From: a virus
Taxonomy: Duplodnaviria; Caudoviricetes
IMG/VR virus record: IMGVR_UViG_3300050135_000024
Span: 1-62,271 of that record
Strand: one strand, 5' to 3'
Length of the DNA stretch: 62,271 nt
Position 1 is the stretch's first letter. The number at the start of each line of letters is the position of its first letter. A program made the position numbers and the translations under genes. The notes below the pieces were generated by a model. It ran no database searches. It was not told where the DNA came from and saw nothing but the letters and a program-made list of their open reading frames with translations. Shown piece by piece: positions 37,036-60,807 of the stretch.

Positions 37036-37289
37036 TGGGCGACGGCTTCAGCTTGGCTCTTGCGTTCGATCGCAGCGGCGCAGACGATCACCCGTTCGTC
37101 ATGGGCGTAGAGGTCGGCCGGCTGTGGGAGATGCTAAAGGACCCGGAGGGCTTCGAGCAGACGATCCACAGCGAGAACGTGGAGATGGTCATGCGGATCC
37201 AGGAGGCCACGGGCCGCGATATGCGCATCGAGGACCATGACGATGAGTGGTGCTTCCTGATCGTCGAGCCCGCCGAGGTCATCGCCTGA
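37035..37289 (+). CDS. Hypothetical protein
   Basis: TGATG coupling. Confidence 0.6.
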   Translation: MGDGFSLALAFDRSGADDHPFVMGVEVGRLWEMLKDPEGFEQTIHSENVEMVMRIQEATGRDMRIEDHDDEWCFLIVEPAEVIA

Positions 37290-37655
37290 TGGGCAAGAGC
37301 ACCAGCTGCATGCGGTGCGGCGCTCTACGCCCTGAGTAGCGCCCGGCGGCTTGCCAGACCGCGACCGGTTCCCAGGGTCGCCGACTCTTTCGGGGTCCAG
37401 TACGAGCGGTGCCCCAGGCATCTGAGCTACAGGCGCGCATCCGATCCTACCGGCCCGGCCCGTCGCCTTCGCCTCATCGATAGCCAGAGCGCCCCCGGCA
37501 ACCACCTCGCCGGGGGCGCCGACCCACCAAGGAGATCTGACCTCCCGATGAGCAATCCCAAAGGGCTACATCAGCAGAAGCTACCTAAACCCTCTAGTTC
37601 TGGACCTGGGCGGGGGCGCGTCGTGACCCCGCAGCCTGCGCCTGGGGGAGGCGAG

Positions 37656-41241: not shown

Positions 41242-42066
41242 TCAGGAGCACGCGGGCGTAAGATCCCGGCTGACCCTCTCCGGTCCCTCATGAGCGCCCC
41301 GCATTGGCCCCCTCGGGGCTGAGGCGGGGCGTTCGGTCGTAGAATCCTTGCTCCGGGTCTCGCTGCCCGAGAAGCAACAGCGAGTGGTGGCCTTGGCTGG
41401 AGCCGCGTCTGACTTCGGTCGGGCGCGGCTCTTTGTCGTTCTGGGGACGGAAGGGGCCGGAGTCGAACCGGCTCGCCCGTGTGGACTCAGCGGCTTAGCA
41501 AGCCGCCCGCTGACCGTTCGCTTCCCTTCCCTATCGTCGGTCCTGCCCCAACCACCGGGCGCGTCTAACCGGGACGCCGGGCTGCTCGCGTTCGGCGATG
41601 CGCTCAGCGCGTGTGAGGAATTCGCTCCGAGGAATGTCTTGGGCTTCGGCGGCTCGTGCTTGGCCCGCACTTTAGATGCGAGCCGGTCGGCATCGATCGT
41701 AATACGGCTGTGAACCCAGATCACCTGCCAGCTCTGGTGAACGCGCAGCCGAGCGCGCATCGAGGCGCGGCACTGGCTCGCGCGGTCCTCCGACGCCGGG
41801 TCCCAATCGCCCTCCCAGAAGCGCGCGACCGCCTGGCAGTCCGTGGCGAACGTCGCCACGTTCATCCCGCGCTCATGGGCCAGCTCCATCGCCCACAGAA
41901 CCGCCTCGAACTCTGCGATCACGTTTGTGGGCGTCTGTGCGTAGCGCCCCTCCGGCCCGATAGCCCCCGTCACCGCGAGCCCCGCGCGACCGGCGCGAAA
42001 GGACGCGTCAGTCACGACGCTCGCAAAGGAGGCCAATGCTGGCTCATCGCGATCGACGGGACGCAA
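41242..42066 (-). CDS. RNase HI-like protein (domain ~42020-41660; ORF runs on through the tRNA)
   Basis: TDAS, TN.IAEFEAV, TDC and ADRLA match RNase H catalytic D/E/D/D. Confidence 0.7.
   Translation of the reverse strand: MRPVDRDEPALASFASVVTDASFRAGRAGLAVTGAIGPEGRYAQTPTNVIAEFEAVLWAMELAHERGMNVATFATDCQAVARFWEGDWDPASEDRASQCRASMRARLRVHQSWQVIWVHSRITIDADRLASKVRAKHEPPKPKTFLGANSSHALSASPNASSPASRLDAPGGWGRTDDREGKRTVSGRLAKPLSPHGRAGSTPAPSVPRTTKSRARPKSDAAPAKATTRCCFSGSETRSKDSTTERPASAPRGPMRGAHEGPERVSRDLTPACS
41400..41440. terminator. Hairpin between convergent RNA units
   Basis: gagccgcgtctgac-ttcg-gtcgggcgcggctc followed by tttgtcgtt. Confidence 0.6.
41448..41530 (-). tRNA. tRNA-Ser(GCU)
   Basis: GGAAGGG/CCCTTCC acceptor, GCGGC-TTGCTAA-GCCGC, long variable arm, GCCGG-TTCGACT-CCGGC, G discriminator; weak D-arm. 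Confidence 0.75.
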
Positions 42067-42360: not shown

Positions 42361-43334
42361 CCCCAGAAATGAGCCCACACCCTCCCTTCCAAAAGGAGGT
42401 CCAACTTGGGCTCAGAGCCGGGCGGGCAAGCAGCAGGCGCCGCCCCGTTTCGGCGTCTCCACACAAGGTAAGGGCGGTCGTGACAGCGACCGTCCTTACC
42501 GGAGATTCTACCTACATATCGGCTGGAACGCCAGCAAAAGCGACCCCCGCACGGATAGCCAGCCTCGTAGCGGAGCTTGAGGGACGTGGCGATCGACGCC
42601 TCGGACATGCCCGCGTATGCGAACGGGCAGCGCTACAAGTACAAGGGCGGCCCGGAACGCGAGAAGTACAGCGACCCCGACGCCACCTGGGGGCACCGCT
42701 CCGCCGTGTCCACACGGAAGGGTGGCGGCTTCTACGGCTACCGCCTGCACATGGCCGTGTGCGCCAAGACCGATCTTCCGCTCGCGTGGCGGGTCGAGAC
42801 GGCCAGCATGAACGAAACCCAGGCCGTCGCGCCACTGCTGGACAAGCTGCACGCGCTCGGGATCGACCCGGAGACGTGCGCGATGGACAAGGGCTACGAC
42901 GCCGGGCGCATGTACCAGGCGTGCGCTGACCGGGACATCGCGCCGGTCATCTGCTTGAAGAAAACCCCCGCCGTCAAGCGCGGCGAGCACAAGCCCCCGA
43001 CTTGCGAGCATGGCGAGTGGAGGTTCGGCGGGGCGGACCGCAAGCGCGGAGCTACCAAGTGGCGTTGCCCGACCGGGGAGTGCAAGCCCGCGTCCGTGTG
43101 GATCAAGGCCGACCGGCTGCACCCGCTGATCCCGCGCGAGACGCTTCGCTTCAAGGGCCTGTACCGTCGCCGCGCGTCGGTAGAGCGCGGGTTCGGCAGG
43201 CTCAAGAACGAATGGGCGCTCGCGCCGCTGCGAGTGCGCCGGATCGAGCGGGTGCGGCTACACGCCGACCACCAGCGTGAGATCCGCATAGCAGCCTAGA
43301 AACTTCTTCGTCCATCTCGCGTTCTTTTCTGGGG
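42361..43334 (+). mobile_element. Decayed IS (IS5/IS4-like DDE) with terminal inverted repeats
   Basis: Ends CCCCAGAAATGAGC and (reverse complement) CCCCAGAAAAGAAC, 12/14; encloses a transposase remnant. Confidence 0.6.
42480..43299 (+). pseudogene. Internally deleted, frameshifted DDE transposase
   Basis: AIDAS, DPDATWG, YGYRLH, DKGYD and Y..R.SVER.F.RLK; the short N-terminal piece is in a different frame. Confidence 0.75.
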
Positions 43335-47236: not shown

Positions 47237-47697
47237 GCGCGTCTGCGAACGGCCGCGCCCCACGCCAACGCGTCGGCCCGCGCGCCAAGATCGCCGTGCT
47301 GCTCCCGAGCGGCTGGCTTTACGGAACAGTCAACCGGGCCGAATTCGACCGGGCGGTCAGCGACCCCAAGAAGCACCGGACATTCCGGCTCAGCAAACGA
47401 GGCTGGCACGGAAACACCTCGGTGGTCGACGTCATCAGCTCGCACGTCGACGCGGTGGACTGGCAAGCACCAGCCACCCCAGTGAGACGGAAGAAGGCCG
47501 CCAAACTGAGAGTCACGAAGCCGCTCACCCAGAAACAGGCCGTTGACCTCTCCACCAACATCGAATTCCTCGACGAGAACGCACTCGCGATGTTGTGCCT
47601 CGCCGCCGGAGTGGACTCGATCGAGGCTCTGAGCCAGGCCACTCTCCCTGCATTTCGGGAGGCGTTGGCTGGGTACATGGACGAGGCGCGAGCATGA
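47233..47697 (+). CDS. Hypothetical protein
   Basis: ATGA coupling. Confidence 0.5.
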   Translation: MSASANGRAPRQRVGPRAKIAVLLPSGWLYGTVNRAEFDRAVSDPKKHRTFRLSKRGWHGNTSVVDVISSHVDAVDWQAPATPVRRKKAAKLRVTKPLTQKQAVDLSTNIEFLDENALAMLCLAAGVDSIEALSQATLPAFREALAGYMDEARA

Positions 47698-48905
47698 GCG
47701 CGGAACGCCACTACGGGAACTTCGCGGGCATCCCGATCGCGGAGACATCGTTCCTGCCGCCGGGCACCTGGATGATCGTCAGCGACAACCAGATCATCTG
47801 CAGCCCGGACACCTGGCGGCGCATCCAGTGGATGTGGGGCGGTCTGTGGGAGCGGTTCTCCGTCGAGCTTGATCGGCGCACGAGAGAGCGCATGGCGGGG
47901 GCGCAGCGGTGAGCGTCGGCAGGCCACCGGCGGAGCACGAGAAGCGCGTCGTCGCGGTCCGCTCGGAGGACTGCCAAGCGATGCTGGACCTGGTGCTCGT
48001 GGCGCGCACAAAGCACGTGATCGCCGTCAAGCTCTCCGATGACACGATCGAGCAAGCACCCGAGGTCATCGCTGCTCTCGACGATCCCGAGGTCCACGTC
48101 CACTACACGATGATTCCGCCCGAAGGCGCCCCCGCGTACGTGGCATGGCAGCAGACCGGCTATCCGCTGCTGTTGCAGGTCCGCACGTGCATCGAATGTG
48201 GTGAGCGGGTGTTGTTCGCGTGAGCGCCCCGGTCCAGATCGAGCGGTGCTCCGAGACTTGCGGGCGAAAGCCGGGTCACTCGGGGCCACACACTGACATC
48301 CCGACTGAGCGCGACCGCGAACGGGCACGCGAGCTGGCCAAGGCGATTCCTTTGGGGATGCGTCGTCGTGTAGCCGTCGGCACCCGCGTCGAATCCCGCG
48401 TGCGCAGCGTGTGCGGCAAGGATGGCCAGCGTCGCTGGGCCCGAGGCATAGTCGTCGGGCACGAGCCCTCGCTTGACCTGCCGCTGGTCTGGTGGGACGA
48501 CGAACGCGGGCTCACACCCGAGGCCGTAACAGACGACGAATTCGAGGTGTGCGGGTGAGCAGGAAGATCCCGCTTCGGGCACGCGATGGCAGCATTCGAA
48601 TGCCGCCTGACCTCGCCATCGTCGAGGACTTGCCGCTGGTGGAGTGGTCGGATGAACGTGGCCTCTCGCCCGAGGCGGTCCAGGACCAGTACGAGATCGT
48701 GCGATGACGAGCGCCCAGGTTCAGGCGGCGGCGTGCTTGGGCTGCGGCCAGGCTTGGCTGTTCCCCGACGAGCTGCCCGAGTCCAACGACCCGCGCAACC
48801 AGTTTCCCGTTGAGTCCGGGCCGTGGGACTTGCCCTGCCCCGACTGCGAAGGTGTGATCTGGATCACGGACCCGATGCCACGCAGCGAGTTCGAGGCGAG
48901 CCGCA

Positions 48906-49802
48906 ATGTCTGACCTCGCCGTCGTCCAAGACCTGTCGCTCGTCCCAGGTGGGATGGAGCGGAAGCTCTGGCGCGAGGTCCCAGGCGGCCTGATCGAATA
49001 CCTCGAGGCCGAGGCTGGCTGGCTGACGTTGAAGGGCGAGCCCCGGCTGCGCCCCTACCGCAGGTATCTCTGGACGCCAACCGACGGCGAGCCGATCAAG
49101 CTCCCGTCGGTCAGCCACATCTGCGACCAGGTGTGCCCGAAGGACGGGATCCCCTACTGGAGCGAGGCCCGAGGAATTGAAGGAGCGCTGACCGCATTCA
49201 AGGCTGGCTGGCTGACGGTCACGAGCCGAGCCTTGGACGCGATCGCCATCGTCCGCGAGCACAACCTCGGCGCTGAGGCGGCGAAGAACCGGGCGGCCAA
49301 ACGGGGGTTGAACGTCCACGCGATCAATGACCACTACATGAAAACTGGCGAGCCGCCTAAGCAGTCGGACCACCCGGCCGAACATCGCGGCTTCATCCGC
49401 TCGTGGTCCAAGGCGACGCTCATCCTCAAGCCCGAGCCTGTCGCGGTCGAGCAGCTAGTCGTGCATCCGGACGACCTCTACGCAGGCCGCCTGGACATGC
49501 GCGCGATCGTCCGAGGCGAGTTGGAGCTCGACGAGTTTAAGACCCAGGAGTGGGGCGGCCTGTTCAGCTCGACGCATCTCCAAGCGATGCTGTATGAGCG
49601 CGCCGCCGTGCGCTGCGGCGATGAGCCGGCCGCGCGCCTGCGAGCGATCGTGCTCCCCGCAGATGGCGACTGGAACGAGGACCAGCACACCATGATCGTG
49701 GCTTGGCCTGACTCGAAGGTCGAAGCTGCGCTCGCCTGGTTCCGGGAGAAACGAGCCATCGACTCTGCCTGCGGAGCCCGTAACCGGGCGGTGAGGACGT
49801 GA
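48906..49802 (+). CDS. PD-(D/E)XK exonuclease (Cas4/RecB-like)
   Basis: LPSVS.I, RG..VH, VE, YAGRLD, EFKT and LQ..LY. Confidence 0.75.
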   Translation: MSDLAVVQDLSLVPGGMERKLWREVPGGLIEYLEAEAGWLTLKGEPRLRPYRRYLWTPTDGEPIKLPSVSHICDQVCPKDGIPYWSEARGIEGALTAFKAGWLTVTSRALDAIAIVREHNLGAEAAKNRAAKRGLNVHAINDHYMKTGEPPKQSDHPAEHRGFIRSWSKATLILKPEPVAVEQLVVHPDDLYAGRLDMRAIVRGELELDEFKTQEWGGLFSSTHLQAMLYERAAVRCGDEPAARLRAIVLPADGDWNEDQHTMIVAWPDSKVEAALAWFREKRAIDSACGARNRAVRT

Positions 49803-50394
49803 GCGCGCACCGGGTTGTGATCGAGTTCGATGATGGCGTGCGGGCCAAGCTCGTCTGCCCAGAGTCGGGCTGCATGCCAGCGCAGAACTGCGCTCAATGC
49901 GGCCGGGACCTACGACCGCGTGACGAGGCCGAGCAGCAGGCGGAAGGCATCGAGCCTTGCTACGACTGCAAGGACGCCGAGTCATGGCGAGACGAGTGCT
50001 GGATCAAGACGTGGTTCGACAACATCGACGCCACAGAACTGCTCGCCGGGAAGGTGACGGTCGAGATCGACGCCGAGTGGGACCTAGACCACATGGTCGC
50101 ACACATCATCGAAACGGAGCCATCGGCCGGAGAGGCAGGCACGGGCGTGAGCGCGGACCGCACCCTGACGGGCGTGATCGCCGAGCGGCAACGTGAGCGC
50201 AACCGCCTACATCGGCTCGCCGGAGCACTGCGCCGCGTGCTTGACGACCAGCGCGCAGAGACGGGCGTGGACGAGTGGGACGAGTCGGACTTCCGCTGCT
50301 ACGCCTACAACGCCGCCGAAGCAGTGCTGGAGCGCGGCATCCACGGCGACGCGCGCCTCGATGAGTGCCTTGACCAGGCAGACCCGGAGGCCCT

Positions 50395-50754
50395 ATGACC
50401 CCCGTCTCCCCCTCCCACAAAGCCGGCGACGGCGTCTTCGAGTACCTGGCCGAGCGCCCTTCCATCGGGCTCACGCCTACGGAGTTGGCATACGCACTCA
50501 AGCGGCCCGTAGAGGAGATCGAGACCGACGTGGCGCAGCTTCTCGTTGACGGCCGGCTAAACGCCGGCTACGGCCACTACAGCGCGCGTCCCTGCGGACA
50601 GGAGTCGCCCGCGCCGGTCGAGGTCCACTACGGCATCTGTCGTCTGCCTGTCGGGCATCGTGGCCCCTGCGAGTGGACGCCTGCTCACACACGAAGCGAG
50701 CCCGGTATGACTGTCGGCTCCCCCTCCCACGAAGCCCACAGGAGGCTGATATGA
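50395..50754 (+). CDS. Hypothetical protein (cassette 1, wHTH-like plus Cys/His)
   Basis: Starts with repeat-encoded SPSHKA and ends with SPSHEA. Confidence 0.5.
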   Translation: MTPVSPSHKAGDGVFEYLAERPSIGLTPTELAYALKRPVEEIETDVAQLLVDGRLNAGYGHYSARPCGQESPAPVEVHYGICRLPVGHRGPCEWTPAHTRSEPGMTVGSPSHEAHRRLI

Positions 50755-50999
50755 AGATCATCGTCCAGCATGGCGGGTACGGGTGCGACACGGGCTGTTG
50801 CGGGCACTGGGTAGAGTGCGACGACCCCGAGCAGCAGCCGCCGAGAACACGGGGTGGCTTCACTTTCGAGCACGCCTCCCATGACGGCGAGACTCCTCAG
50901 CAGTTCGCGGAACGGCTCGTGCGCGAAACCTTCGGCGATGAGCATGTAGCTGACCTTGACTGGGAGAACTGCCAAGTCGTCGAGGATTGTGATTGGTGA
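50751..50999 (+). CDS. Hypothetical protein (cassette 2)
   Basis: YGCDTGCCGH motif; AGGAGG RBS. Confidence 0.65.
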   Translation: MKIIVQHGGYGCDTGCCGHWVECDDPEQQPPRTRGGFTFEHASHDGETPQQFAERLVRETFGDEHVADLDWENCQVVEDCDW

Positions 51000-51035
51000 T
51001 GCGGGGCTCCCCCTCCCACGAAGCCAAGGCGGCCG

Positions 51036-51362
51036 ATGCTTAGCGGTCTCGACAGGGAGATCGTCGGCGTGAACGTCGCGGGATGCGACGCGCTCTGCTT
51101 GCCGTGCGCGGCGAAGCGACTGGGCGAACCTCGCTGCGCACGAGTGATCGCGGGGCTTGAGGATCGCCGGCACCTTGAATGGGGTGCGCCCGAACCGATC
51201 AACCGATACAACGCCGAAGACTGGGCGCAGGACAATGCCGAGGAATGCAACTGCGAGCGTGAAGTGCCGCTCGGCGAGGTCTGCGAGAACTGCTGGATGC
51301 TGTGCTGTCCCGACTGCGGCAAGCGCCTCGACGAGCCGCCGAAGGCCGAGGCTGCGACATGA
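51036..51362 (+). CDS. Cys-rich hypothetical protein (cassette 3)
   Basis: Multiple CxxC. Confidence 0.6.
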   Translation: MLSGLDREIVGVNVAGCDALCLPCAAKRLGEPRCARVIAGLEDRRHLEWGAPEPINRYNAEDWAQDNAEECNCEREVPLGEVCENCWMLCCPDCGKRLDEPPKAEAAT

Positions 51363-51396
51363 CCGGCTCCCCCTCCCACGAAGCCGGCGAGGCGAC

Positions 51397-51630
51397 GTGA
51401 TGGTCGTCTATGCGATCGGCACGCGCTTGCGTCATCACGCTGGCAGCCTGTGGGAAGTCACAGGACACAACGAGCTCACGGGCGACTATGGGATCAAATG
51501 CCTGATCGGGACGGTGCGAGAGGGCCTGATCGGTGGCGAGGTCGCGGGCTCCGTGCGCTCGGGCATCCACGCCGACTACCTGCACGGCGACGGCTGGCGA
51601 GTCGAGATGGCCGATGAGGTGGACTGGTAA
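51397..51630 (+). CDS. Hypothetical protein (cassette 4)
   Basis: Coupled ORF between repeats. Confidence 0.6.
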   Translation: MMVVYAIGTRLRHHAGSLWEVTGHNELTGDYGIKCLIGTVREGLIGGEVAGSVRSGIHADYLHGDGWRVEMADEVDW

Positions 51631-51667
51631 TGGGCGTCTCCCCCTCCCACGAAGCCAAGGCGGGCGA

Positions 51668-51880
51668 ATGAGCAAGCGAGGCAAGCGAGCGTCGGCGCGT
51701 AAGTGGCGAGGCGGCACGTCGGGCGGCATGAGCAAGCACCGCACGTCGGGCCGCGCTCCGCAGTTCGGGACGCAGGAGATCGCGCGACTGATGAACGAGG
51801 AAGCCACGAGGCGACCGAGGGCCTATCGCATGTTCGCGTCTATGGCGGCGCTGATGCGCTCACGGCGGGGGCCGGTATGA
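51668..51880 (+). CDS. Basic hypothetical protein (cassette 5)
   Basis: ATGA-coupled after the fifth repeat. Confidence 0.45.
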   Translation: MSKRGKRASARKWRGGTSGGMSKHRTSGRAPQFGTQEIARLMNEEATRRPRAYRMFASMAALMRSRRGPV

Positions 51881-52498
51881 GGCGCGTCTTGCTTCAACGT
51901 GGCACGTACCCCTCTGGGTGGAAGCTGACGCTACTCTCACCCACCTTCGAACCGGGCGCGAGACACCACAGGTATGGCCTTCGGCTAGAGGTTCGCCGTC
52001 CGGCCGGCCACACTCAGCACACGCGGATCGTCGAATGCTTCATCGGCCGGCCACACCCTGACCTGCGTCACGGCGGTGTGGGCACCCTGACGGTGGAAGC
52101 AAAGACATGGCGTGCGTGGCTGCACAAGTCTGCGGGTCCGGGGTCCAGTGCAGGCCGCAAGGTGTTCATTCGGCTGAAGGTGGGCACAGGCGGGAAGCGC
52201 GGATGACGCCGACTGACTCCGCAGCCGCCAAGGCCAGTGATCCGTCGCCCTCGCAGTTGCGGGCGCGTGCCAAGGAGCGGCGGCTGGAACTTCTCGCATG
52301 GATCCGCGAGCGGCCCGAGCACCAAGGACTGACCACGCGAGAGCTTGTGAACCTGTCGGGCATCTACGACCGGGACGAGTATTGCGGCTGGCTCGGGAGC
52401 CCGATCTCACGCGCCAATCGCGATGTGAGGGCACTCCAGCGCGAAGGGCTGCTTAGGTATGCGGTCTATTCCTATCCCGCTCGCTGGGAGCTTGCCTC

Positions 52499-52918
52499 GT
52501 GACCGTCACCCGCTCCAGCACGGCCAAGAGCGGCGTCCTCCCCATCCCCAAACCCGAGCGCCCTCCGAAGGGACGACGCGAGCGCGAGAGGCCGGCGCTC
52601 TACACCTACGGGTTCCTGCCGGGGGAGAAGCCCGAGTGCTGGCTGAAACAGTTCGCGCCCGACGTGCCGTGCGATGGCCGGATGCAGTGGTGTCACCTGA
52701 TCCGCGAACAGACGATCCGCAAAGAGGTCTCGCGCGCGAAGGCTGTGCTGTGGGACCAGCGCGTTCTCCAGGCCGCCTGCTATCGGCATCACACGGCTCT
52801 CGACCACTTGAAACTGGTCATCCCGCGCTCGGCTCTCCCCGCGAGCGTTGAGGAATTCGCCGCAGAGCACAAGATCGACTGGTGGCTGACGAAACGCTAC
52901 GGGGAGCGGACGGCGTGA
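52499..52918 (+). CDS. HNH-like hypothetical protein
   Basis: C.G.MQ.CHLI...C.RHH..LD. Confidence 0.5.
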   Translation: MTVTRSSTAKSGVLPIPKPERPPKGRRERERPALYTYGFLPGEKPECWLKQFAPDVPCDGRMQWCHLIREQTIRKEVSRAKAVLWDQRVLQAACYRHHTALDHLKLVIPRSALPASVEEFAAEHKIDWWLTKRYGERTA

Positions 52919-53093
52919 GCTCTCGCCGAAGCGCTGTCTTTTTTGCGTCGGACGTGACGACAGCGGCGGAGGAGGCGGCCTGCGCGATGGCGGACCACCT
53001 GCCCAGCGACGACTTGCTTCCCGAGCTGTCTAACTCAGTCGAATGCGCGATCGTTGAGTTCTTTCAGAAGCTCTCGAACGGGGAGCGTACCGC

Positions 53094-53774
53094 GTGACCG
53101 CGCACACGGCGATGCTGCGGCTCTACGCTGCGGATGAGCTTGGCCCGGACGGCTACCCGCTGGTCTGGCATCGCTGCCCGCGCTGTAAGGGAACGGGCAA
53201 GGTTGGGAACCCCGAGCACCCGGACTGCTGCGGCACGTTCGCTGGCGGCTGCGGGGGCAGCGGGTCCCTGAAGGCCCGCGTCCGCTCCGAAGCTGGCAAC
53301 CGCTGCGTGCGCTGCCAGCATCCCTACCAGCCGGGCGCGGGTGAGTGGTCGCGTTGCGATGAGCGATGTGTCCACGACGGGCCGCTCCGCGTCGGAGGGC
53401 GCCCGGAGGTCAAGGACCCCTTCACTGCGATTACGCCACCGCCTATCGACCCCGGCTTGGCACCACCCCGTGTGTGGGTCGAGCGCGGCTGGGCCTGCTA
53501 CGCGCAGTGGCGCATCCTCACCGTCCACCACCTCGGGGGCCCGACGCGCAAGTTCGACTGCCGCTGGCATCAGCTCGTGGCCCTTTGCCAGCGATGCCAT
53601 CTTGAGATTCAAGGGAAGGTCAACATGGAGCGCGCCTTCATCTTCGAGCACAGCGCTTGGTTCAAGCCTTATGCAGCAGGCTGGTATGCCTGGAAGTATG
53701 AGGGCCGGGAGATCGATCGTGCCGAGGCAGAAGCAGATCAGGACCGGCTACTCGCATTGGAGCGCCTGGTTTGA
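53094..53774 (+). CDS. HNH-like protein with CxxCxGxG zinc finger
   Basis: CPRCKGTG, RCVRC, LTVHHL...L..LCQRCH. Confidence 0.65.
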   Translation: MTAHTAMLRLYAADELGPDGYPLVWHRCPRCKGTGKVGNPEHPDCCGTFAGGCGGSGSLKARVRSEAGNRCVRCQHPYQPGAGEWSRCDERCVHDGPLRVGGRPEVKDPFTAITPPPIDPGLAPPRVWVERGWACYAQWRILTVHHLGGPTRKFDCRWHQLVALCQRCHLEIQGKVNMERAFIFEHSAWFKPYAAGWYAWKYEGREIDRAEAEADQDRLLALERLV

Positions 53775-54277
53775 TGGCGTGGCAATCGAAACAGGCGCAG
53801 CGTGACTATCTCCGGGCGAGGGAGCGGCGGCTGATTGCCGCCGGTGGCTGCCGCGTTTGCCTTACGACACCCGCCGACCCCGGCTATGCGAGCTGCGAGC
53901 GATGCCGTACGAAAGAGCGCGAGAAGTACGCGTGTCGGCGTGACGCTGGAGCACATGATCTCGGTGCCCGACGTGCGGCGACCCTGCTGAGACGCTACGG
54001 GATCACGGCGGCTGAGTATGACGCGCTGTTCGCGCGACAGGGCGGCCTATGCGCACTCTGTCGCAAGTCGAATAAAGGACGCGGTCGAATGGCGGTTGAC
54101 CACGATCACGCGACTGGACGCGTTCGTGGCCTGCTCTGCTTCCACTGCAACACCGCACTCGGGCGACTGGAGTCCATCGGGCTTGACGCTGTGGCCATCT
54201 ATCTCGGACAGGAGCTTGACCGCCCCGAGGCCGAGGCGCGCCTCGATGAGCTGCTGGCGTACGAGAGGCTCGCATGA
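53774..54277 (+). CDS. Endonuclease VII-like homing endonuclease
   Basis: YGIT..EY......Q.G.CALC, VDHDH.TG.VRGLLC..CN..LG. Confidence 0.9.
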   Translation: MAWQSKQAQRDYLRARERRLIAAGGCRVCLTTPADPGYASCERCRTKEREKYACRRDAGAHDLGARRAATLLRRYGITAAEYDALFARQGGLCALCRKSNKGRGRMAVDHDHATGRVRGLLCFHCNTALGRLESIGLDAVAIYLGQELDRPEAEARLDELLAYERLA

Positions 54278-54434
54278 CCGACCTCGCCGCGATGGTCTGC
54301 ACCTGCGGGCATAGCGCCTACTGGCACCAAGGCTGCTGCGACAAATGCGACTGCCCGAAGTTCTCGCTCGCCCGCATTGACACCTACGAATCGCTGCGCG
54401 GCGAGATCGCCCGGCTGACCAAGGAGCGTCCGGC

Positions 54435-54911
54435 GTGAGCGATCTTGCGCAAGCGCTCATGGTGGCGATCCGCGTGCACGCCGACCAGCGCGACAAACAG
54501 GGCGAGCCATATCTGCTGCACGTGCTGCGGGTCGTGGAGGCCGTCACCTACGACACGAGGGTTGTCGCGGCGCTACACGATGTGCTGGAGGACGGGACGC
54601 CCAGCGTCGAGCATTTGCGTCCCGTTGGGCTGTCAGAGGACGAGTGGATCGCACTGGAAGCCCTGACACGGAAGCCGGATCGCTGGTCCTACAGGGAGTA
54701 CATTGACCAGATCGCGGGACACGCGGGCAGCGGCGGCGACATCGCCCGCGAGGTCAAGCTAGCCGACCTCCGCGACAACCTCGGACGCATCCCGGGCCCC
54801 GACCTATTGCTGAGCTTCGCGCCCGTGGAGCGGGACGCAGTGGCCGCGAAGTGGGCATCTCTCAAAGCCCGTTACGAGAAGGCGATCGACACCTTGGAGC
54901 GGGTCGCGTGA
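54435..54911 (+). CDS. HD-domain (p)ppGpp hydrolase-like protein
   Basis: H..Q.DK.G.PY..H..RV, ALHDVLED and VKLADL.DN. Confidence 0.8.
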   Translation: MSDLAQALMVAIRVHADQRDKQGEPYLLHVLRVVEAVTYDTRVVAALHDVLEDGTPSVEHLRPVGLSEDEWIALEALTRKPDRWSYREYIDQIAGHAGSGGDIAREVKLADLRDNLGRIPGPDLLLSFAPVERDAVAAKWASLKARYEKAIDTLERVA

Positions 54912-56353: not shown

Positions 56354-56756
56354 GTAGATACCCCATCATCGAGAAGGAGCCGGTCTTCGACCTGCTGGAG
56401 CGCTGGTTTGAACTGCGGCCCAGACGGGCTCCCCTCCCGGGGTCGGTCGGCGAGGAGCTCGTGCAGCTTACCGAGGCCTTTCTCCGCGACCACGGCCGTC
56501 TGAAAGCCGACTCCGATGAGTGAGCGCGCAGTGAAGCGACCTTGCCACGGCGATGTCTGGGAGCAGATGCCAATGCGGGAGGGGAGTCCTAGCCCGCGCG
56601 GTAGATTCGTGGTTCTGCACGTATGCGGTCATCATGAGCCGCCAGAGGTTACGGGCGTGTGGCAGTCCAACGGACACGCTGATCCAGCGCTGCCTGATTC
56701 GATTCCCCTCCCGCGATTCGAGGAGCAGTTTCGGCTGGTAGAGCGGGAAGCCACCG

Positions 56757-57161
56757 ATGAGTGAGCGGGACGTGAGCGGATTGAGTTTTGGGGGTCTGCG
56801 CGAGCGCGTGATCGACGAGGGGATCGAGGCCGTACGCCGGGACTATACGAGGGCCGATCAGAAGGAAAAGCTGGAGGGGTCAGTCGCGGGCTTTGAGGGA
56901 TGCCGTGGCCTCGACCAGAACGAGCTGGCGGACCTGCTCACGACTGCGCGCGGGTGGGCGAACAAGCGGGCGCTGAGGGCCTACGACGATGCCGAGGCTG
57001 GCCGTAGCTACTGGTGGCACCGCTGCTTTGAGCTTGAGGTCGAGTGGGTCTGCAACGTTCTTTCTGCCGCCTTGATGAACAGCGGCCTGCCGACCATCGT
57101 TCCGCCGACCGCACGCGGGGCCATGAAGGCGGCGCAGATCCTCGGAGTGGCTGACCGATGA
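56757..57161 (+). CDS. Hypothetical protein
   Basis: GF..CR...YW..RC..LEVEWV.NVLSA pattern. Confidence 0.6.
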   Translation: MSERDVSGLSFGGLRERVIDEGIEAVRRDYTRADQKEKLEGSVAGFEGCRGLDQNELADLLTTARGWANKRALRAYDDAEAGRSYWWHRCFELEVEWVCNVLSAALMNSGLPTIVPPTARGAMKAAQILGVADR

Positions 57162-57565
57162 GTGAGCGTCTACAGGTCGAGGTCATACGAGCCGACGAGC
57201 TTGCCGTGGGCGACGAGGCGATCATCGTGGAGTTCCGGGGCAAGGTCGCCGCGACGCGAGCGCTGACCCGCAACGACGGTCCACACTTTCGACAAGGGGT
57301 CTGGATCACCCTGGCCAGCGACGAGGGCGCAGAACTGTCGAGCGACTCACCCGTCTTGCGTGTGGTTCGTGCCCCAGCCGAGCCGACAGAGGCACACGCG
57401 AAGGCGCTCGCGGCGCTTCTCTACGAAGACCAGAACCCCGGCACTCTCGGGCATCGCGTATGGGCCGACATTCCGCCCGTCTATCGAGAGGCGTGGTTCA
57501 GGCGAGCCAACCAGCTTCTCGCTCTCGTTGCTCGCGCCGAGACGGACTCGGAGAAGCCGTCGTGA
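57158..57565 (+). CDS. Hypothetical protein
   Basis: ATGA coupling. Confidence 0.55.
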   Translation: MSERLQVEVIRADELAVGDEAIIVEFRGKVAATRALTRNDGPHFRQGVWITLASDEGAELSSDSPVLRVVRAPAEPTEAHAKALAALLYEDQNPGTLGHRVWADIPPVYREAWFRRANQLLALVARAETDSEKPS

Positions 57566-59920: not shown

Positions 59921-60102
59921 GCCGAGACGACCTCAAGCTGGCGGCCGACCTGATTGGCAACCTGCTCTGGCTGGCCATCGCTATCGCCCTGATCGTGCTA
60001 CTTGCCACTGGCGATCTGACCGTCACGGCGCACTTCCGTTGACGCGAGCCGCGTAACCCCCGTTGCTGGTCCATTAGTTTTGGGGGGCCTGCGAACCCGG
60101 CG

Positions 60103-60807
60103 CTAATCGCCCCAGTCGATCGCCCTCATCTCGGCGGCGAGTTCGGGGTCGTTGACGTGAAGGTAGATGCTGGTGGTCTCGATCGAGGCGTGTCCCATGA
60201 GCTGCTGGAGCTTGAGGATCGAGACGCCGTGGCCCAGGCAGTCGGTCGCAAAAGTGTGGCGCAGCGTGTGCGGGTGCGCCTTCTTTGTGTCGATGCCGGC
60301 CTTGAGCATCCGCCGTCGAATGCTCTTATAGGTCGAGTCGGTGGTGACGCCGAGGTTCGGCAGCTCGCCGTGGCGGCTACATGCGCCACGACGGATTGAG
60401 ATGAACAGCGGCGCGTCGTCCTTGCGGGTGCGCGAGTAGCGCCCGCGCATCTGAAGCCAGCGGGTCAGCAGATCGAGCGTCGCAGCGTCGGCGTAGACGG
60501 TGCGCTCCTTCTTGCCCTTCCCGGTCACGCGAATATTGCCCGTCTCCCAATCGACGTCGCCGAGCCGGACACCGCACGCCTCGTGGATACGCAACCCACA
60601 GCGATACATCAGCTGCATGATGCAGCGGTCGCGGAAGCCTGTCGGCACTCGCATGTTGGGCGTGCTCATCAGCTTCTTGACCTCTGCGGCGGTGAGCACG
60701 CCCGGCAGCCGCCGCCCCTTGCGCGGGCCTCGGTGCGCGGTGCGACTGAGTGCGGTTTTGCTCGCAGGCACGGGCGCCTCTTTCCGGGCTGGCAGGGAGT
60801 GCGACAA
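60103..60807 (-). CDS. Tyrosine recombinase (catalytic domain only, Xer/Fim-like)
   Basis: GLR..E, GKG.K.R, HPHTLRH, GH and Y; lacks core-binding and arm-binding domains. Confidence 0.9.

What the first reader, a model, noticed from the sequence alone, without database searches (positions are those of the whole stretch)
50395..51880. Repeat-delimited gene-cassette array with coupled SPSHEA mini-ORFs
Seen: five copies of CTCCCCCTCCCAC(G/A)AAGCC at spacings of 312, 289, 360 and 271 bp, each separating an unrelated 70-120 aa gene. Every copy is read in the same frame from a nearby ATG: MTPVSPSHKA..., MTVGSPSHEAHRRLI*, MRGSPSHEAKAADA*, MTGSPSHEAGEAT* and MGVSPSHEAKAGE*. In copies 3-5 the ATG overlaps the upstream stop and the mini-ORF stop overlaps or just follows the next start. 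Nucleotide identity includes wobble positions, so the DNA itself is conserved. Inference: a recombination site built into a translational-coupling linker, letting promoterless cassettes be added, excised or reordered without breaking operon translation, like an integron array but phage-borne. The motif is also anti-SD-like, and the catalytic-only tyrosine recombinase at 60103 is a candidate catalyst.
Basis: partly seen in the sequence, partly recalled or inferred. Interest (0 to 1): 0.85.

Follow-up and report, generated by a model that had tools for sequence, protein, structure and literature searches.

The report
Repeated linker between phage gene cassettes
An uncultured high-GC phage joins five small unrelated genes with an identical 19-base linker inside tiny relay reading frames, and its one known relative carries different genes at these linkers, so they look like the seams where small genes are swapped.

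Summary
CTCCCCCTCCCAC(G/A)AAGCC occurs five times, all on the + strand, only at 50406-51656 (0 of 100 shuffles reach five). Each copy lies at a gene boundary and is read in one frame.

With the three 13-14-codon mini-ORFs counted as cistrons, 19 of 20 consecutive junctions from 48220 to 54911 overlap stop and start. The linkers therefore keep a promoterless operon translationally coupled.

The only relative found, G001, is a complete 56.7-kb phage. It has two copies, flanking an 88%-identical homologue of gene C. Homology starts and stops within a few bases of the two cores. Genes A, B, D, E and F are absent from G001, and a different gene follows its second copy. Contigs from another study show the motif in other flanks.

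The site-specific, integron-like part is not supported. The site has no hairpin or shared inverted repeat. G001 has no tyrosine recombinase. No circles or deletion joints were seen, although only contigs could be laid.

Best reading (about 0.5): a portable coupling linker whose identical core serves as short homology for cassette gain, loss and replacement. This resembles T4-type PeSLs and lambdoid "boundary sequences". What the core binds is unknown, and a purely regulatory site remains a serious rival.

The parts
50406..50424 (+). Repeat core R1 (CTCCCCCTCCCACAAAGCC), read as residues 5-10 of gene B
50718..50736 (+). Repeat core R2. It lies in frame in the C-terminal tail of gene B. An AGGAGG SD and the ATGA overlap with gene C follow it. 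It is the left edge of the block shared with G001.
51007..51025 (+). Repeat core R3, the right edge of the block shared with G001
51367..51385 (+). Repeat core R4
51638..51656 (+). Repeat core R5. Its flanks resemble those of R3 (9 of 14 nt upstream, 10 of 12 nt downstream).
   Evidence: (family D3)
50999..51043 (+). Relay mini-ORF 3 (14 codons). Its start overlaps the stop of C by 1 nt (TGATG). Its stop lies 8 nt into gene D.
51359..51400 (+). Relay mini-ORF 4 (13 codons). ATGA overlap with the stop of D, TGATG overlap with the start of E.
51630..51671 (+). Relay mini-ORF 5 (13 codons). TAATG overlap with the stop of E, ATGA overlap with the start of F.
   Evidence: A relative in run X4 has TGATG here, so the overlap is kept.
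49799..50398 (+). Gene A (199 aa), upstream of R1; absent from G001
50395..50754 (+). Gene B (119 aa), an orphan and possibly a winged-helix protein. It carries R1 at its N-terminus and R2 in its C-terminal tail.
   Evidence: fold evidence weak: pLDDT 55, best Foldseek E 0.047
50751..50999 (+). Gene C (82 aa), a conserved small Cys/His protein family. It is the only cassette shared with G001 (85% aa, 88% nt).
51036..51362 (+). Gene D (108 aa, Cys-rich); absent from G001
51400..51630 (+). Gene E (76 aa); absent from G001. A 97%-identical copy followed by the motif lies in a contig of run X4.
51668..51880 (+). Gene F (70 aa, basic), after the last repeat; absent from G001
49782..49802 (+). Second kind of junction repeat, J1 (tail ...RNRAVRT*, SD GAGGA, GTGA overlap). 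It occurs once here and three times in a row in G001.
52202..52235 (+). Third conserved junction, J3 (ATGA overlap plus MTPTDSAAAKA). It heads two unrelated genes in G000 and G001 and occurs alone in an X4 contig.

Best explanation
The 19-nt core (21 nt with the preceding G[G/T]) is the conserved heart of a portable inter-cistronic linker. It sits in a long, promoterless, translationally coupled operon of small non-structural genes in an uncultured high-GC tailed phage whose sequence occurs in peat metagenome runs.

A full linker has four parts in order:
1. the stop of gene N overlapping a start codon;
2. a 13-14-codon relay mini-ORF that carries the core;
3. the Shine-Dalgarno sequence of gene N+1;
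4. the mini-ORF stop overlapping the start of gene N+1.

Shown:
- the linkers keep the chain of termination-reinitiation overlaps unbroken;
- the cores lie at the points where gene content differs between the two known relatives.

Inferred:
- The same 19-21 nt recurs in direct orientation at successive boundaries and in related phages. It therefore acts as short homology for general or phage-encoded recombination, which adds, deletes or replaces [gene + linker] units without breaking coupling. An exonuclease-like gene lies just upstream.
- This is the way PeSL cassettes work in T4-type phages and the way lambdoid 'boundary sequences' were proposed to work.

Not explained: why this C-rich sequence in particular is kept exact. 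It probably also binds something (a protein or an RNA), so a regulatory role may coexist with the recombination role.
For: (1) The repeat is real and local: 5 exact copies in one orientation inside 1.3 kb and none elsewhere in 62 kb.

(2) Coupling. From 48600 to 54911, 19 of 19 consecutive junctions overlap by 1, 4, 8 or 37 nt when the mini-ORFs are counted. Only the first of the 20 junctions examined, P->stub, has a gap (41 nt). Without the mini-ORFs, C->D, D->E and E->F would be the only further gaps, at 36-37 nt.

(3) The ATG-to-core distance is 6 or 9 nt, so the frame is kept. Five different downstream ends (four in the window, one in G001) each still overlap the next start.

(4) No promoter-like site lies in 47.5-54 kb. 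The one terminator-like site is on the - strand, against a shuffle mean of 2.6.

(5) Comparison with G001 (complete, with terminal repeats).
- It has only 2 copies, flanking the gene C homologue.
- The homology block is window 50715-51030, which starts 3 nt before R2 and ends 5 nt after R3.
- Of 12 proteins from 48906-53774, only exo (36%), C (85%), I (60%) and K (54%) have homologues in G001.
- A different gene follows the second copy, again through a mini-ORF with TGATG and GTGA overlaps.

(6) Run X4, from another study, has three informative contigs: one with an E-like gene plus the motif; one of 314 nt that matches only 51634-51667, with unlike flanks on both sides; and one that matches only J3.

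(7) The same pattern recurs with other sequences.
- J1 occurs three times in a row in G001 and once in G000.
- A 53-nt duplication of the 5' end of gene I flanks a methylase-like gene in G001.
- A 34-nt duplication of the exonuclease 5' end flanks a 69-aa gene in G000 (family D8).
- Several 34-63-nt islands of 94-97% identity lie at gene boundaries between unrelated genes.

(8) Gene C homologues in 15 other IMG/VR phages lack the motif. It therefore belongs to the linker and not to the gene.

(9) The edges of the core are sharp. Flanks of paralogous copies are at background identity, except for R3/R5.

(10) Precedent, from passages read.
- PeSLs flank ORFans. Recombination between them explains the differences between RB49 and phi1 and yields mini-circles (PMC2839356).
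Against: - There is only one related genome plus short contig fragments, so the claim that the boundary coincides with the repeat rests on one shared block.
- No recombinant, deletion or circular form was observed. The contigs of runs X1 and X2 are colinear and show no joints. Contigs cannot show rare variants, and X1 and X2 may be the source of this DNA.
- 19-21 bp is short for efficient homologous recombination.
- No annealing protein was identified next to the exonuclease-like gene.
- Between G000 and G001 the two cores show 1 change in 38 nt, against about 23 substitutions in about 301 aligned nt of the block. By my arithmetic this is not a significant excess of conservation.
- Repeats associated with different genes can exist without any recombination role. 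The Cluster K SAS are read as translation signals (PMC3203893).
- The model does not explain why this particular C-rich sequence is kept exact.
Confidence: 0.5

Rival explanations
1. The core is mainly a cis-regulatory site. It could act on DNA as a one-orientation operator of the stoperator kind, or on the mRNA as a binding site for a translational regulator or an anti-SD-like element. Under this reading the cassette differences between relatives are ordinary phage mosaicism, and the mini-ORFs exist only to carry the site without breaking coupling. Gene B, a possible winged-helix protein that bears the site at both ends of its own gene, would be a candidate binder.
For: - Identity is exact over 19 nt and has sharp edges, while the flanks are at background similarity. 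That pattern suits a recognised site.
- All copies have one orientation and lie at gene junctions in the non-structural arm. The Cluster K SAS and the Cluster A stoperators are described the same way in PMC3203893 (passages read).
- The top fold matches of B are MarR/ArsR-type winged-helix proteins, but the model is poor (pLDDT 55) and no match reaches E <= 0.001.
- The core contains CCTCC, the complement of the SD core (sequence).
Against: - There are only 5 sites, packed into 1.3 kb, and none elsewhere. SAS and stoperators are spread through a genome arm or the whole genome.
- The five junctions fold no better than shuffles (z = 0.02 to 1.90), and Rfam has no match.
- B is absent from G001, which keeps two sites.
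- In G000 and G001 two different genes (D and the G001 gene) both follow a copy at the same position after C. This is expected if the copy marks a seam, and it is a coincidence if the site belongs to particular regulated genes.
Confidence: 0.25
2. The mini-ORFs are neutral stubs, with no present function for the core. Each insertion of a gene duplicated the 5' end of a resident gene that began M-x-x-SPSHEA. The array is the trace of serial insertions at one spot.
For: - Two clear stub duplications of this kind exist in the same phages.
- One is the 27-codon stub of gene I before a methylase-like gene in G001 (D1).
- The other is the 35-codon stub with the exonuclease N-terminus in G000 (D8, 55, 69).
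- Copy 1 is still fused to a gene as its N-terminus.
Against: - Those stubs are 81-82% identical and their similarity fades. The five cores have 1 change in 95 nt, while their flanks are already at background.
- In a simple serial-insertion model the owner gene would sit after the last copy. Here the fused copy is the first.
- The downstream ends, which differ in sequence, still keep stop/start overlaps. That argues for selection on translation through the stubs.
Confidence: 0.12
3. The array is an integron-like, site-specific system. A tyrosine recombinase (60103-60807, - strand, or a host enzyme) cuts and joins at the core and moves circular single-gene cassettes.
For: - Each unit is a promoterless single gene with the repeat at its 3' side. 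Homology with G001 ends 2-5 nt after the core.
- A 234-aa protein matches Phage_integrase over residues 37-220 (E 1.2e-39) and lies 8.4 kb downstream on the other strand.
- Read as 7-7-7, the site in copies 2-4 has arms GGCTCCC and GGCTTCG (reverse complement of the right arm), matching at 5 of 7. This is my reading of the sequence and is near chance level.
Against: - G001 is complete and keeps two copies, but it has no match to PF00589 and no tblastn match to the recombinase better than E = 0.24.
- No inverted repeat or hairpin is shared by the copies. One search finds 3 inverted pairs in 50300-51950; none includes a core (one pair brackets R4 alone).
- Folding gives no excess structure.
- The outer arm base differs in copies 1 and 5 (GTCT in place of GGCT).
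- No attI-like site, adjacent integrase or cassette promoter is present.
- Other seams in these phages use quite different repeats (J1 and the stubs). That points to a homology-driven process, not to one dedicated site.
Confidence: 0.05

Closest known systems
PeSL cassettes (promoter-early stem-loop) of T4-type phages (Arbiol et al. 2010, PMC2839356, passages read; 2014 follow-up PMC4122927, listing and abstract only)
   Same: - A short conserved expression signal is repeated in direct orientation between small orphan genes in a variable region.
- Insertions, deletions and replacements between close relatives are bounded by the repeats.
- No dedicated recombinase is known.
- The unit is a gene plus its signal.
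   Different: - A PeSL is a sigma-70-type promoter plus a terminator stem-loop, so it acts on transcription. Here no promoter or stem-loop is found, and the signal is a translated relay mini-ORF that couples translation.
- PeSL mini-circles were shown by inverse PCR. Nothing of that kind has been shown here.
- The phage is high-GC and unrelated to T4.
Short conserved 'boundary sequences' at mosaic junctions of lambdoid phages (Susskind & Botstein 1978 and Clark et al. 2001, as cited in PMC3029335, passages read; the originals were not read)
   Same: - Short conserved sequences lie at gene boundaries and are flanked by non-homologous genes in related phages.
- They are proposed substrates for homologous recombination.
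   Different: - Here one boundary sequence is repeated five times in tandem register in one genome.
- It is identical at all but one position.
- It is packaged in its own mini-ORF.
Start-associated sequences (SAS/ESAS) of Cluster K mycobacteriophages (Pope et al. 2011, PMC3203893, passages read)
   Same: - An asymmetric repeat in one orientation, confined to the non-structural arm.
- It lies just upstream of start codons of genes from different families, and the upstream stop sometimes falls within it.
- Its function is unproven and thought to be translational.
   Different: - SAS is 13 bp, contains the SD core AGGAG, and lies 3-7 bp from the start. 93 sites were identified across the Cluster K genomes, spread over the non-structural half of each genome.
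- This core is 19 nt and C-rich (the complement of an SD). It lies 10-14 nt from the start, inside a mini-ORF, with 5 copies in 1.3 kb.
Integron cassette arrays (attC/attI/IntI)
   Same: - A row of promoterless single-gene units in one orientation, each with a repeat at its 3' side.
- Content is variable between relatives.
   Different: - There is no attC-type imperfect palindrome or hairpin.
- There is no adjacent integrase, attI or cassette promoter.
- The relative lacks any tyrosine recombinase.
- The repeats are identical, not merely structurally alike.
Stoperators of Cluster A mycobacteriophages (described from recall and from the mention in PMC3203893)
   Same: Short asymmetric sites in one orientation relative to transcription, at or overlapping stop and start codons.
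   Different: Stoperators are 13 bp, number in the tens, are spread over the whole genome, and are bound by the immunity repressor. Here there are five clustered sites and no known binder.

Membership tests
Integron | attC site: an imperfect inverted repeat that folds as a single-strand hairpin | tested here: not met
   One search finds 3 inverted pairs in 50300-51950, and none includes a core. The five junctions fold no better than shuffles (z 0.02-1.90).
Integron | An IntI-type tyrosine recombinase next to attI and a cassette promoter | tested here: not met
   The only PF00589 match is 8.4 kb away on the - strand. It is absent from the complete relative G001. No promoter-like site lies in 47.5-54 kb.
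Integron | A row of promoterless single-gene cassettes, each ending in the repeat, with content that varies between relatives | tested here: met
   (one genome pair only).
PeSL cassettes (T4-type phages) | [quoted passage not shown] | tested here: not met
   0 promoter-like sites; the one terminator-like site is on the other strand. No stable structure.
PeSL cassettes (T4-type phages) | Repeats flank small orphan genes, and differences between close relatives are bounded by them | tested here: met
   The shared block 50715-51030 is bounded by R2 and R3. 8 of 12 neighbouring proteins are absent from G001. B is an orphan.
PeSL cassettes (T4-type phages) | Circular forms arise by exchange between neighbouring repeats | not testable with these tools
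   Only contigs of 4 runs could be laid. No joints were seen, but contigs drop rare forms.
Start-associated sequences (Cluster K) | The repeat contains the SD core and lies 3-7 bp before the start codon | tested here: not met
   The core is C-rich and ends 10-14 nt before the next start. The SD lies between them.
Start-associated sequences (Cluster K) | Asymmetric, in one orientation, in the non-structural arm, before genes of different families | tested here: met
Stoperators (Cluster A) | Many copies spread over the genome | tested here: not met
   5 copies within 1.3 kb and none elsewhere at up to 3 mismatches or by profile.
Stoperators (Cluster A) | Bound by the phage repressor | not testable with these tools
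   No binder is known. B is only a weak winged-helix candidate.
Boundary sequences of mosaic phage genomes | A short conserved sequence at a module junction, with unrelated DNA on one or both sides in related phages | tested here: met
   R2 and R3; J1, J3 and further islands; X4 contigs with the motif or J3 in other flanks.

The most novel reading that the evidence does not exclude
The phage carries a true cassette system of a new kind. A 19-21-nt core is embedded in a translated relay mini-ORF. The core is the actively used crossover point at which single promoterless genes are captured, excised (possibly as 270-360-bp circles) and exchanged between related phages. The mini-ORF guarantees that each newcomer is at once translationally coupled to the operon. 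This would be a translation-level counterpart of integrons and PeSLs. The exact conservation of the core would reflect recognition by a dedicated phage or host factor.
Probability: 0.25. Interest if true: 0.8.

Novelty: new variant of a known kind. Interest (0 to 1): 0.6.

Why it matters
How phages gain and lose their many small orphan genes without disrupting expression is a long-standing question. Conserved boundary sequences were proposed decades ago, but they are said to be unidentifiable at most mosaic junctions (PMC3029335).

This locus is an unusually clean case. An identical linker is repeated at five successive gene boundaries. It is built so that translation stays coupled. A natural comparison shows one cassette kept with both of its linkers while its neighbours are replaced.

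If the linker proves to be a recombination hotspot, it gives a testable model for cassette-style evolution of the early operons of high-GC phages. It would also offer a simple design rule for inserting genes into such operons. If instead the core is a regulatory site, it is a new type of junction-associated signal, C-rich and carried in a mini-ORF, alongside SAS and stoperators.

Tried and rejected
RNA element. The five junctions fold no better than shuffles, and Rfam has no match at E <= 1 in 49500-52600. Rejected.

Promoter or terminator repeat. There are 0 promoter-like sites in 47500-54000, and 1 terminator-like site, on the - strand. Rejected.

attC-like hairpin. No inverted repeat is shared by the copies. 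Rejected.

Degenerate copies elsewhere. nhmmer with a profile of the 7 copies finds none: after the 7, the best hit has E = 12. J3 looked faintly like copy 1 by eye but was not picked up.

Cultured relatives. Nothing matched in the phage collection, by blastn of 49500-53000, tblastn of the 436-aa ORF at 120-1430, or tblastn of gene C.

More relatives through proteins. The exonuclease gave none. Gene I gave none alone and only G001 with the alignment. Gene C alone gave only G001.

Motif scans.
- IMG/VR: the 19-mer hit 2 stretches and the 18-mer hit 4. Only those from G001 are related.
- Genome contigs: 66 stretches. My arithmetic expects about 70 by chance for that collection.
- blastn of the window against all 205 loci then held matched only pieces of G001.
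- A context check over L019-L205 used a crude test: an in-frame ATG or GTG within 4 codons upstream. It flagged 3 G001 rows and 10 others. None of the 10 shares anything else with the window.

Gene B homologues. Only B itself was found.

Cassettes as diverged duplicates of one gene. No pairwise similarity. Rejected.

Excess conservation of the cores between G000 and G001. The cores show 1 change in 38 nt, against about 23 in about 301 nt of the block. This is not significant by my arithmetic, so it is not used as evidence.

Extended junction subtypes. Only R3/R5 share flanks above background. R1/R4 do not. I dropped a more elaborate history built on subtypes.

Sequencing runs. No RNA holder is listed. 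No joints were seen in the contigs of 4 runs, and parts without cover in X3 and X4 say nothing.

Fold of B. The model is poor and no match reaches E <= 0.001. It is only a lead.

Supplementary files of the papers were not opened; Figs S3 and S4 of PMC3203893 and the PeSL supplements might refine the comparison.
Full report
WHAT IS THERE

The window is a whole IMG/VR virus record (G000, 62,271 b, 94% complete by CheckV, about 65% G+C). The sequence CTCCCCCTCCCAC(G/A)AAGCC occurs five times, always on the + strand, at 50406, 50718, 51007, 51367 and 51638. It occurs nowhere else at up to three mismatches. Chance expectation is 0.05, and 0 of 100 shuffles reach five. Spacings are 312, 289, 360 and 271. 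A profile built from all known copies finds no weaker copies: the seven copies score E <= 5.3e-5 and the next hit scores E = 12. Alignment shows a sharply bounded core of 19 nt, or 21 with the preceding G[G/T]. Flanks of paralogous copies are at background identity, except R3/R5, which share 9 of 14 nt upstream and 10 of 12 nt downstream.

GENE MAP AND MINI-ORFS

The core lies at the boundaries of genes A (49799-50398), B (50395-50754), C (50751-50999), D (51036-51362), E (51400-51630) and F (51668-51880). The proteins are unrelated to each other (no blastp hit below E = 0.3 among the 12 compared) and have coding-like GC3. B to F have no credible Pfam match (one sub-threshold chance hit for C) and no PHROG match.

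Gene C is a real gene. 50 protein clusters at 42-85% identity share a GCDTGCCGH...HVADLDW pattern, and most of those aligned (15 of 23) start at the residue matching its MKIIV start. The motif is therefore upstream of C and not part of it.

Every core is read as S-P-S-H-(E/K)-A from an ATG 6 or 9 nt before the TCC codon. Three copies lie in free-standing mini-ORFs of 13-14 codons (50999-51043, 51359-51400, 51630-51671). Copy 1 forms the N-terminus of B. Copy 2 lies in frame in the tail of B.

THE COUPLING CHAIN

I listed 21 cistrons from 48220 to 54911, counting the mini-ORFs. Of the 20 junctions, 19 overlap stop and start by 1, 4, 8 or 37 nt. Only the first junction has a gap, of 41 nt. Without the mini-ORFs, C->D, D->E and E->F would be the only other gaps, at 36-37 nt.

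Each mini-ORF also holds the SD of the next gene, after the core. The downstream ends differ in sequence, yet each still overlaps the next start: ATGA, an 8-nt overlap, TGATG and ATGA here, and GTGA in the relative. A relative in another sample has TGATG where the window has TAATG, so the overlap is kept. No promoter-like site lies in 47.5-54 kb.

I conclude that the mini-ORFs are very probably translated relay cistrons that keep a promoterless operon coupled. This is inferred from anatomy and is not measured.

THE RELATIVE

An exact-motif scan of IMG/VR found one related phage, G001 (56,659 b, terminal repeats, 100% complete). It has two copies, one exact and one with a synonymous C>T change. 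They flank a homologue of gene C.

The nucleotide homology block is window 50715-51030 at 88% identity. It starts 3 nt before core R2 and ends 5 nt after core R3, with background similarity outside.

Of 12 proteins encoded between 48906 and 53774, only four have homologues anywhere in G001: exo (36%), C (85%), I (60%) and K (54%). A, B, D, E, F, G, H and J do not.

In G001 a different small gene follows the second copy, again through a mini-ORF with a TGATG start overlap and a GTGA stop/start overlap. The first copy lies in a GTG-started mini-ORF that ends in ATGA on the start of C.

So one cassette has been kept with both of its linkers while everything around it differs. The number of linkers differs as well, five against two.

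OTHER SAMPLES

Four coded runs were laid, as contigs only. X1 and X2 are identical and colinear and may be the source of this DNA. No joints were reported in any run. X4, from another study, holds three informative contigs:
- a contig with an E-like gene (6 differences in 217 nt) followed by the motif;
- a 314-nt contig that matches only 51634-51667, so the motif sits in flanks that are unlike on both sides;
- a 169-nt contig that matches only 52202-52235.
These show that the linker, and a second junction sequence, occur in other contexts in related phages. They do not test for rare rearrangements.

THE PATTERN IS GENERAL IN THESE PHAGES

- A second junction repeat, J1, consists of the tail ...RNRAVRT*, an SD (GAGGA) and a GTGA overlap. 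It occurs once in G000, at 49782-49802 at the end of the exonuclease-like gene. It occurs three times in a row in G001, where it delimits two extra small genes.
- A 34-nt sequence at 52202-52235 (an ATGA overlap plus MTPTDSAAAKA) heads two unrelated genes in the two phages.
- In G001 a 53-nt duplication (81% identical) of the 5' end of gene I flanks an inserted cytosine-methylase-like gene. My naming of that gene rests on its sequence and is untested.
- In G000 a 34-nt duplication (82%) of the exonuclease 5' end flanks a 69-aa gene.
- Several further islands of 37-63 nt at 94-97% identity lie at gene boundaries between otherwise unrelated DNA.
- Genes I to N end in ...ER(T/L/P/V)(A/V)*, which holds the next gene's SD.

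The operon is thus built from cistrons joined by stereotyped coupling linkers, and gene content changes at these linkers.

WHAT IT IS NOT

- It is not an RNA structure.
- It is not a promoter or terminator cassette.
- It is not an attC-like hairpin.
- It is not part of gene C: 15 other IMG/VR phages with C homologues lack the motif next to C.
- It is not widespread. Scans of metagenome and genome contigs gave single hits at about the number I compute for chance. None other than G001 is related to the window or shows the junction context.
- The tyrosine recombinase (60103-60807, - strand; Phage_integrase over residues 37-220 of 234) is not a conserved partner. G001 has no PF00589 match and no tblastn match better than E = 0.24.

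MECHANISM

Shown: the repeat, its frame, the overlap chain, and the coincidence of the only shared block with two cores.

Inferred: the identical core, in direct orientation at successive boundaries and shared between related phages, serves as short homology. Recombination there adds, removes or replaces [gene + linker] units while translation stays coupled. An exonuclease-like gene (phrog_298, E 2.8e-19) lies just upstream. No annealing protein was identified.

This is how PeSLs are described for T4-type phages, with mini-circles shown by inverse PCR (PMC2839356, passages read). It is also how short boundary sequences were proposed to act (PMC3029335, passages read).

The weakness is that this model does not explain why this C-rich sequence is held exact while its flanks are free. 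That feature fits a recognised site, so a regulatory role is a serious rival and may coexist with the recombination role. It could be an operator of the stoperator kind, or an RNA site comparable in placement to the SAS of Cluster K (PMC3203893, passages read). B is a weak winged-helix candidate, but it is absent from G001.

VERDICT

Cassette-like units in coupling linkers are supported. Integron-like site-specific catalysis is not. Nothing in the literature I searched (PeSL, SAS, boundary sequences) describes a repeated linker carried in relay mini-ORFs. These three searches do not prove that none is in print. I rate it a new variant of a known kind, with interest 0.6.

Noticed in passing
window 49782-49802; L206 3590-3612, 3790-3821, 4073-4090: A second junction repeat, J1: the tail ...RNRAVRT*, the SD GAGGA and a GTGA overlap. 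It occurs once in G000, at the end of the exonuclease-like gene. It occurs three times in a row in G001, where it delimits two extra small genes.
   Followed up: partly
window 52202-52235: A 34-nt junction (ATGA overlap plus MTPTDSAAAKA), 97% identical in G001. It heads two unrelated genes in the two phages and occurs alone in a 169-nt contig of run X4.
   Followed up: partly
window 48600-48707 and 48906-48943: A 35-codon stub ORF. It starts with a copy of the exonuclease N-terminus (34 nt, 82% identical) and ends like the C-terminus of the gene before it (48220-48558). It precedes a 69-aa gene. At the same junction G001 carries a 114-aa ORF that I read by eye as an HNH endonuclease; I ran no family search on it.
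   Followed up: partly
L206 5889-5941 and 6686-6738 (G001): A 53-nt direct duplication (81% identical) of the 5' end of the gene I homologue. It flanks a 230-aa gene that looks like a cytosine-5 DNA methylase, and it leaves a 27-codon stub.
   Followed up: partly
window 52499-54911: Six consecutive genes (I to N) end in ...ER(T/L/P/V)(A/V)*. The last four or five codons hold the next gene's SD before a 4-nt overlap (37 nt at the end of I), so the protein tails are shaped by the coupling signal.
   Followed up: no
window 37284-37346, 48219-48257, 56493-56529, 57159-57214, 57352-57389, 60035-60095: Short islands (37-63 nt, 81-97% identity to G001) at gene boundaries, set in otherwise unrelated DNA. 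Several cover a stop/start overlap plus the first 10-19 codons of the next gene.
   Followed up: partly
window 50751-50999: Gene C belongs to an unnamed family of 70-100-aa phage proteins with invariant C/H positions (GCDTGCCGH...H...HVADLDW), probably metal-binding. Its 50 clusters have no Pfam family, and it is found in phages of 38-66% G+C.
   Followed up: partly
window 60103-60807 (-): A 234-aa tyrosine recombinase with only the catalytic domain matched (residues 37-220). It is absent from G001, although the DNA on both sides of it is 96-98% identical between the two phages.
   Followed up: partly
window 42577-43299 and 41448-41531: A transposase-like ORF (phrog_4716, E 4e-13) lies in the non-structural arm, and a tRNA-Ser(GCT) gene lies on the - strand nearby.
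   Followed up: no
window 51324-51333 / 51385-51394: A 10-nt inverted repeat (90% complementary, 51 nt apart) brackets core R4 only. The other copies have no counterpart.
   Followed up: no
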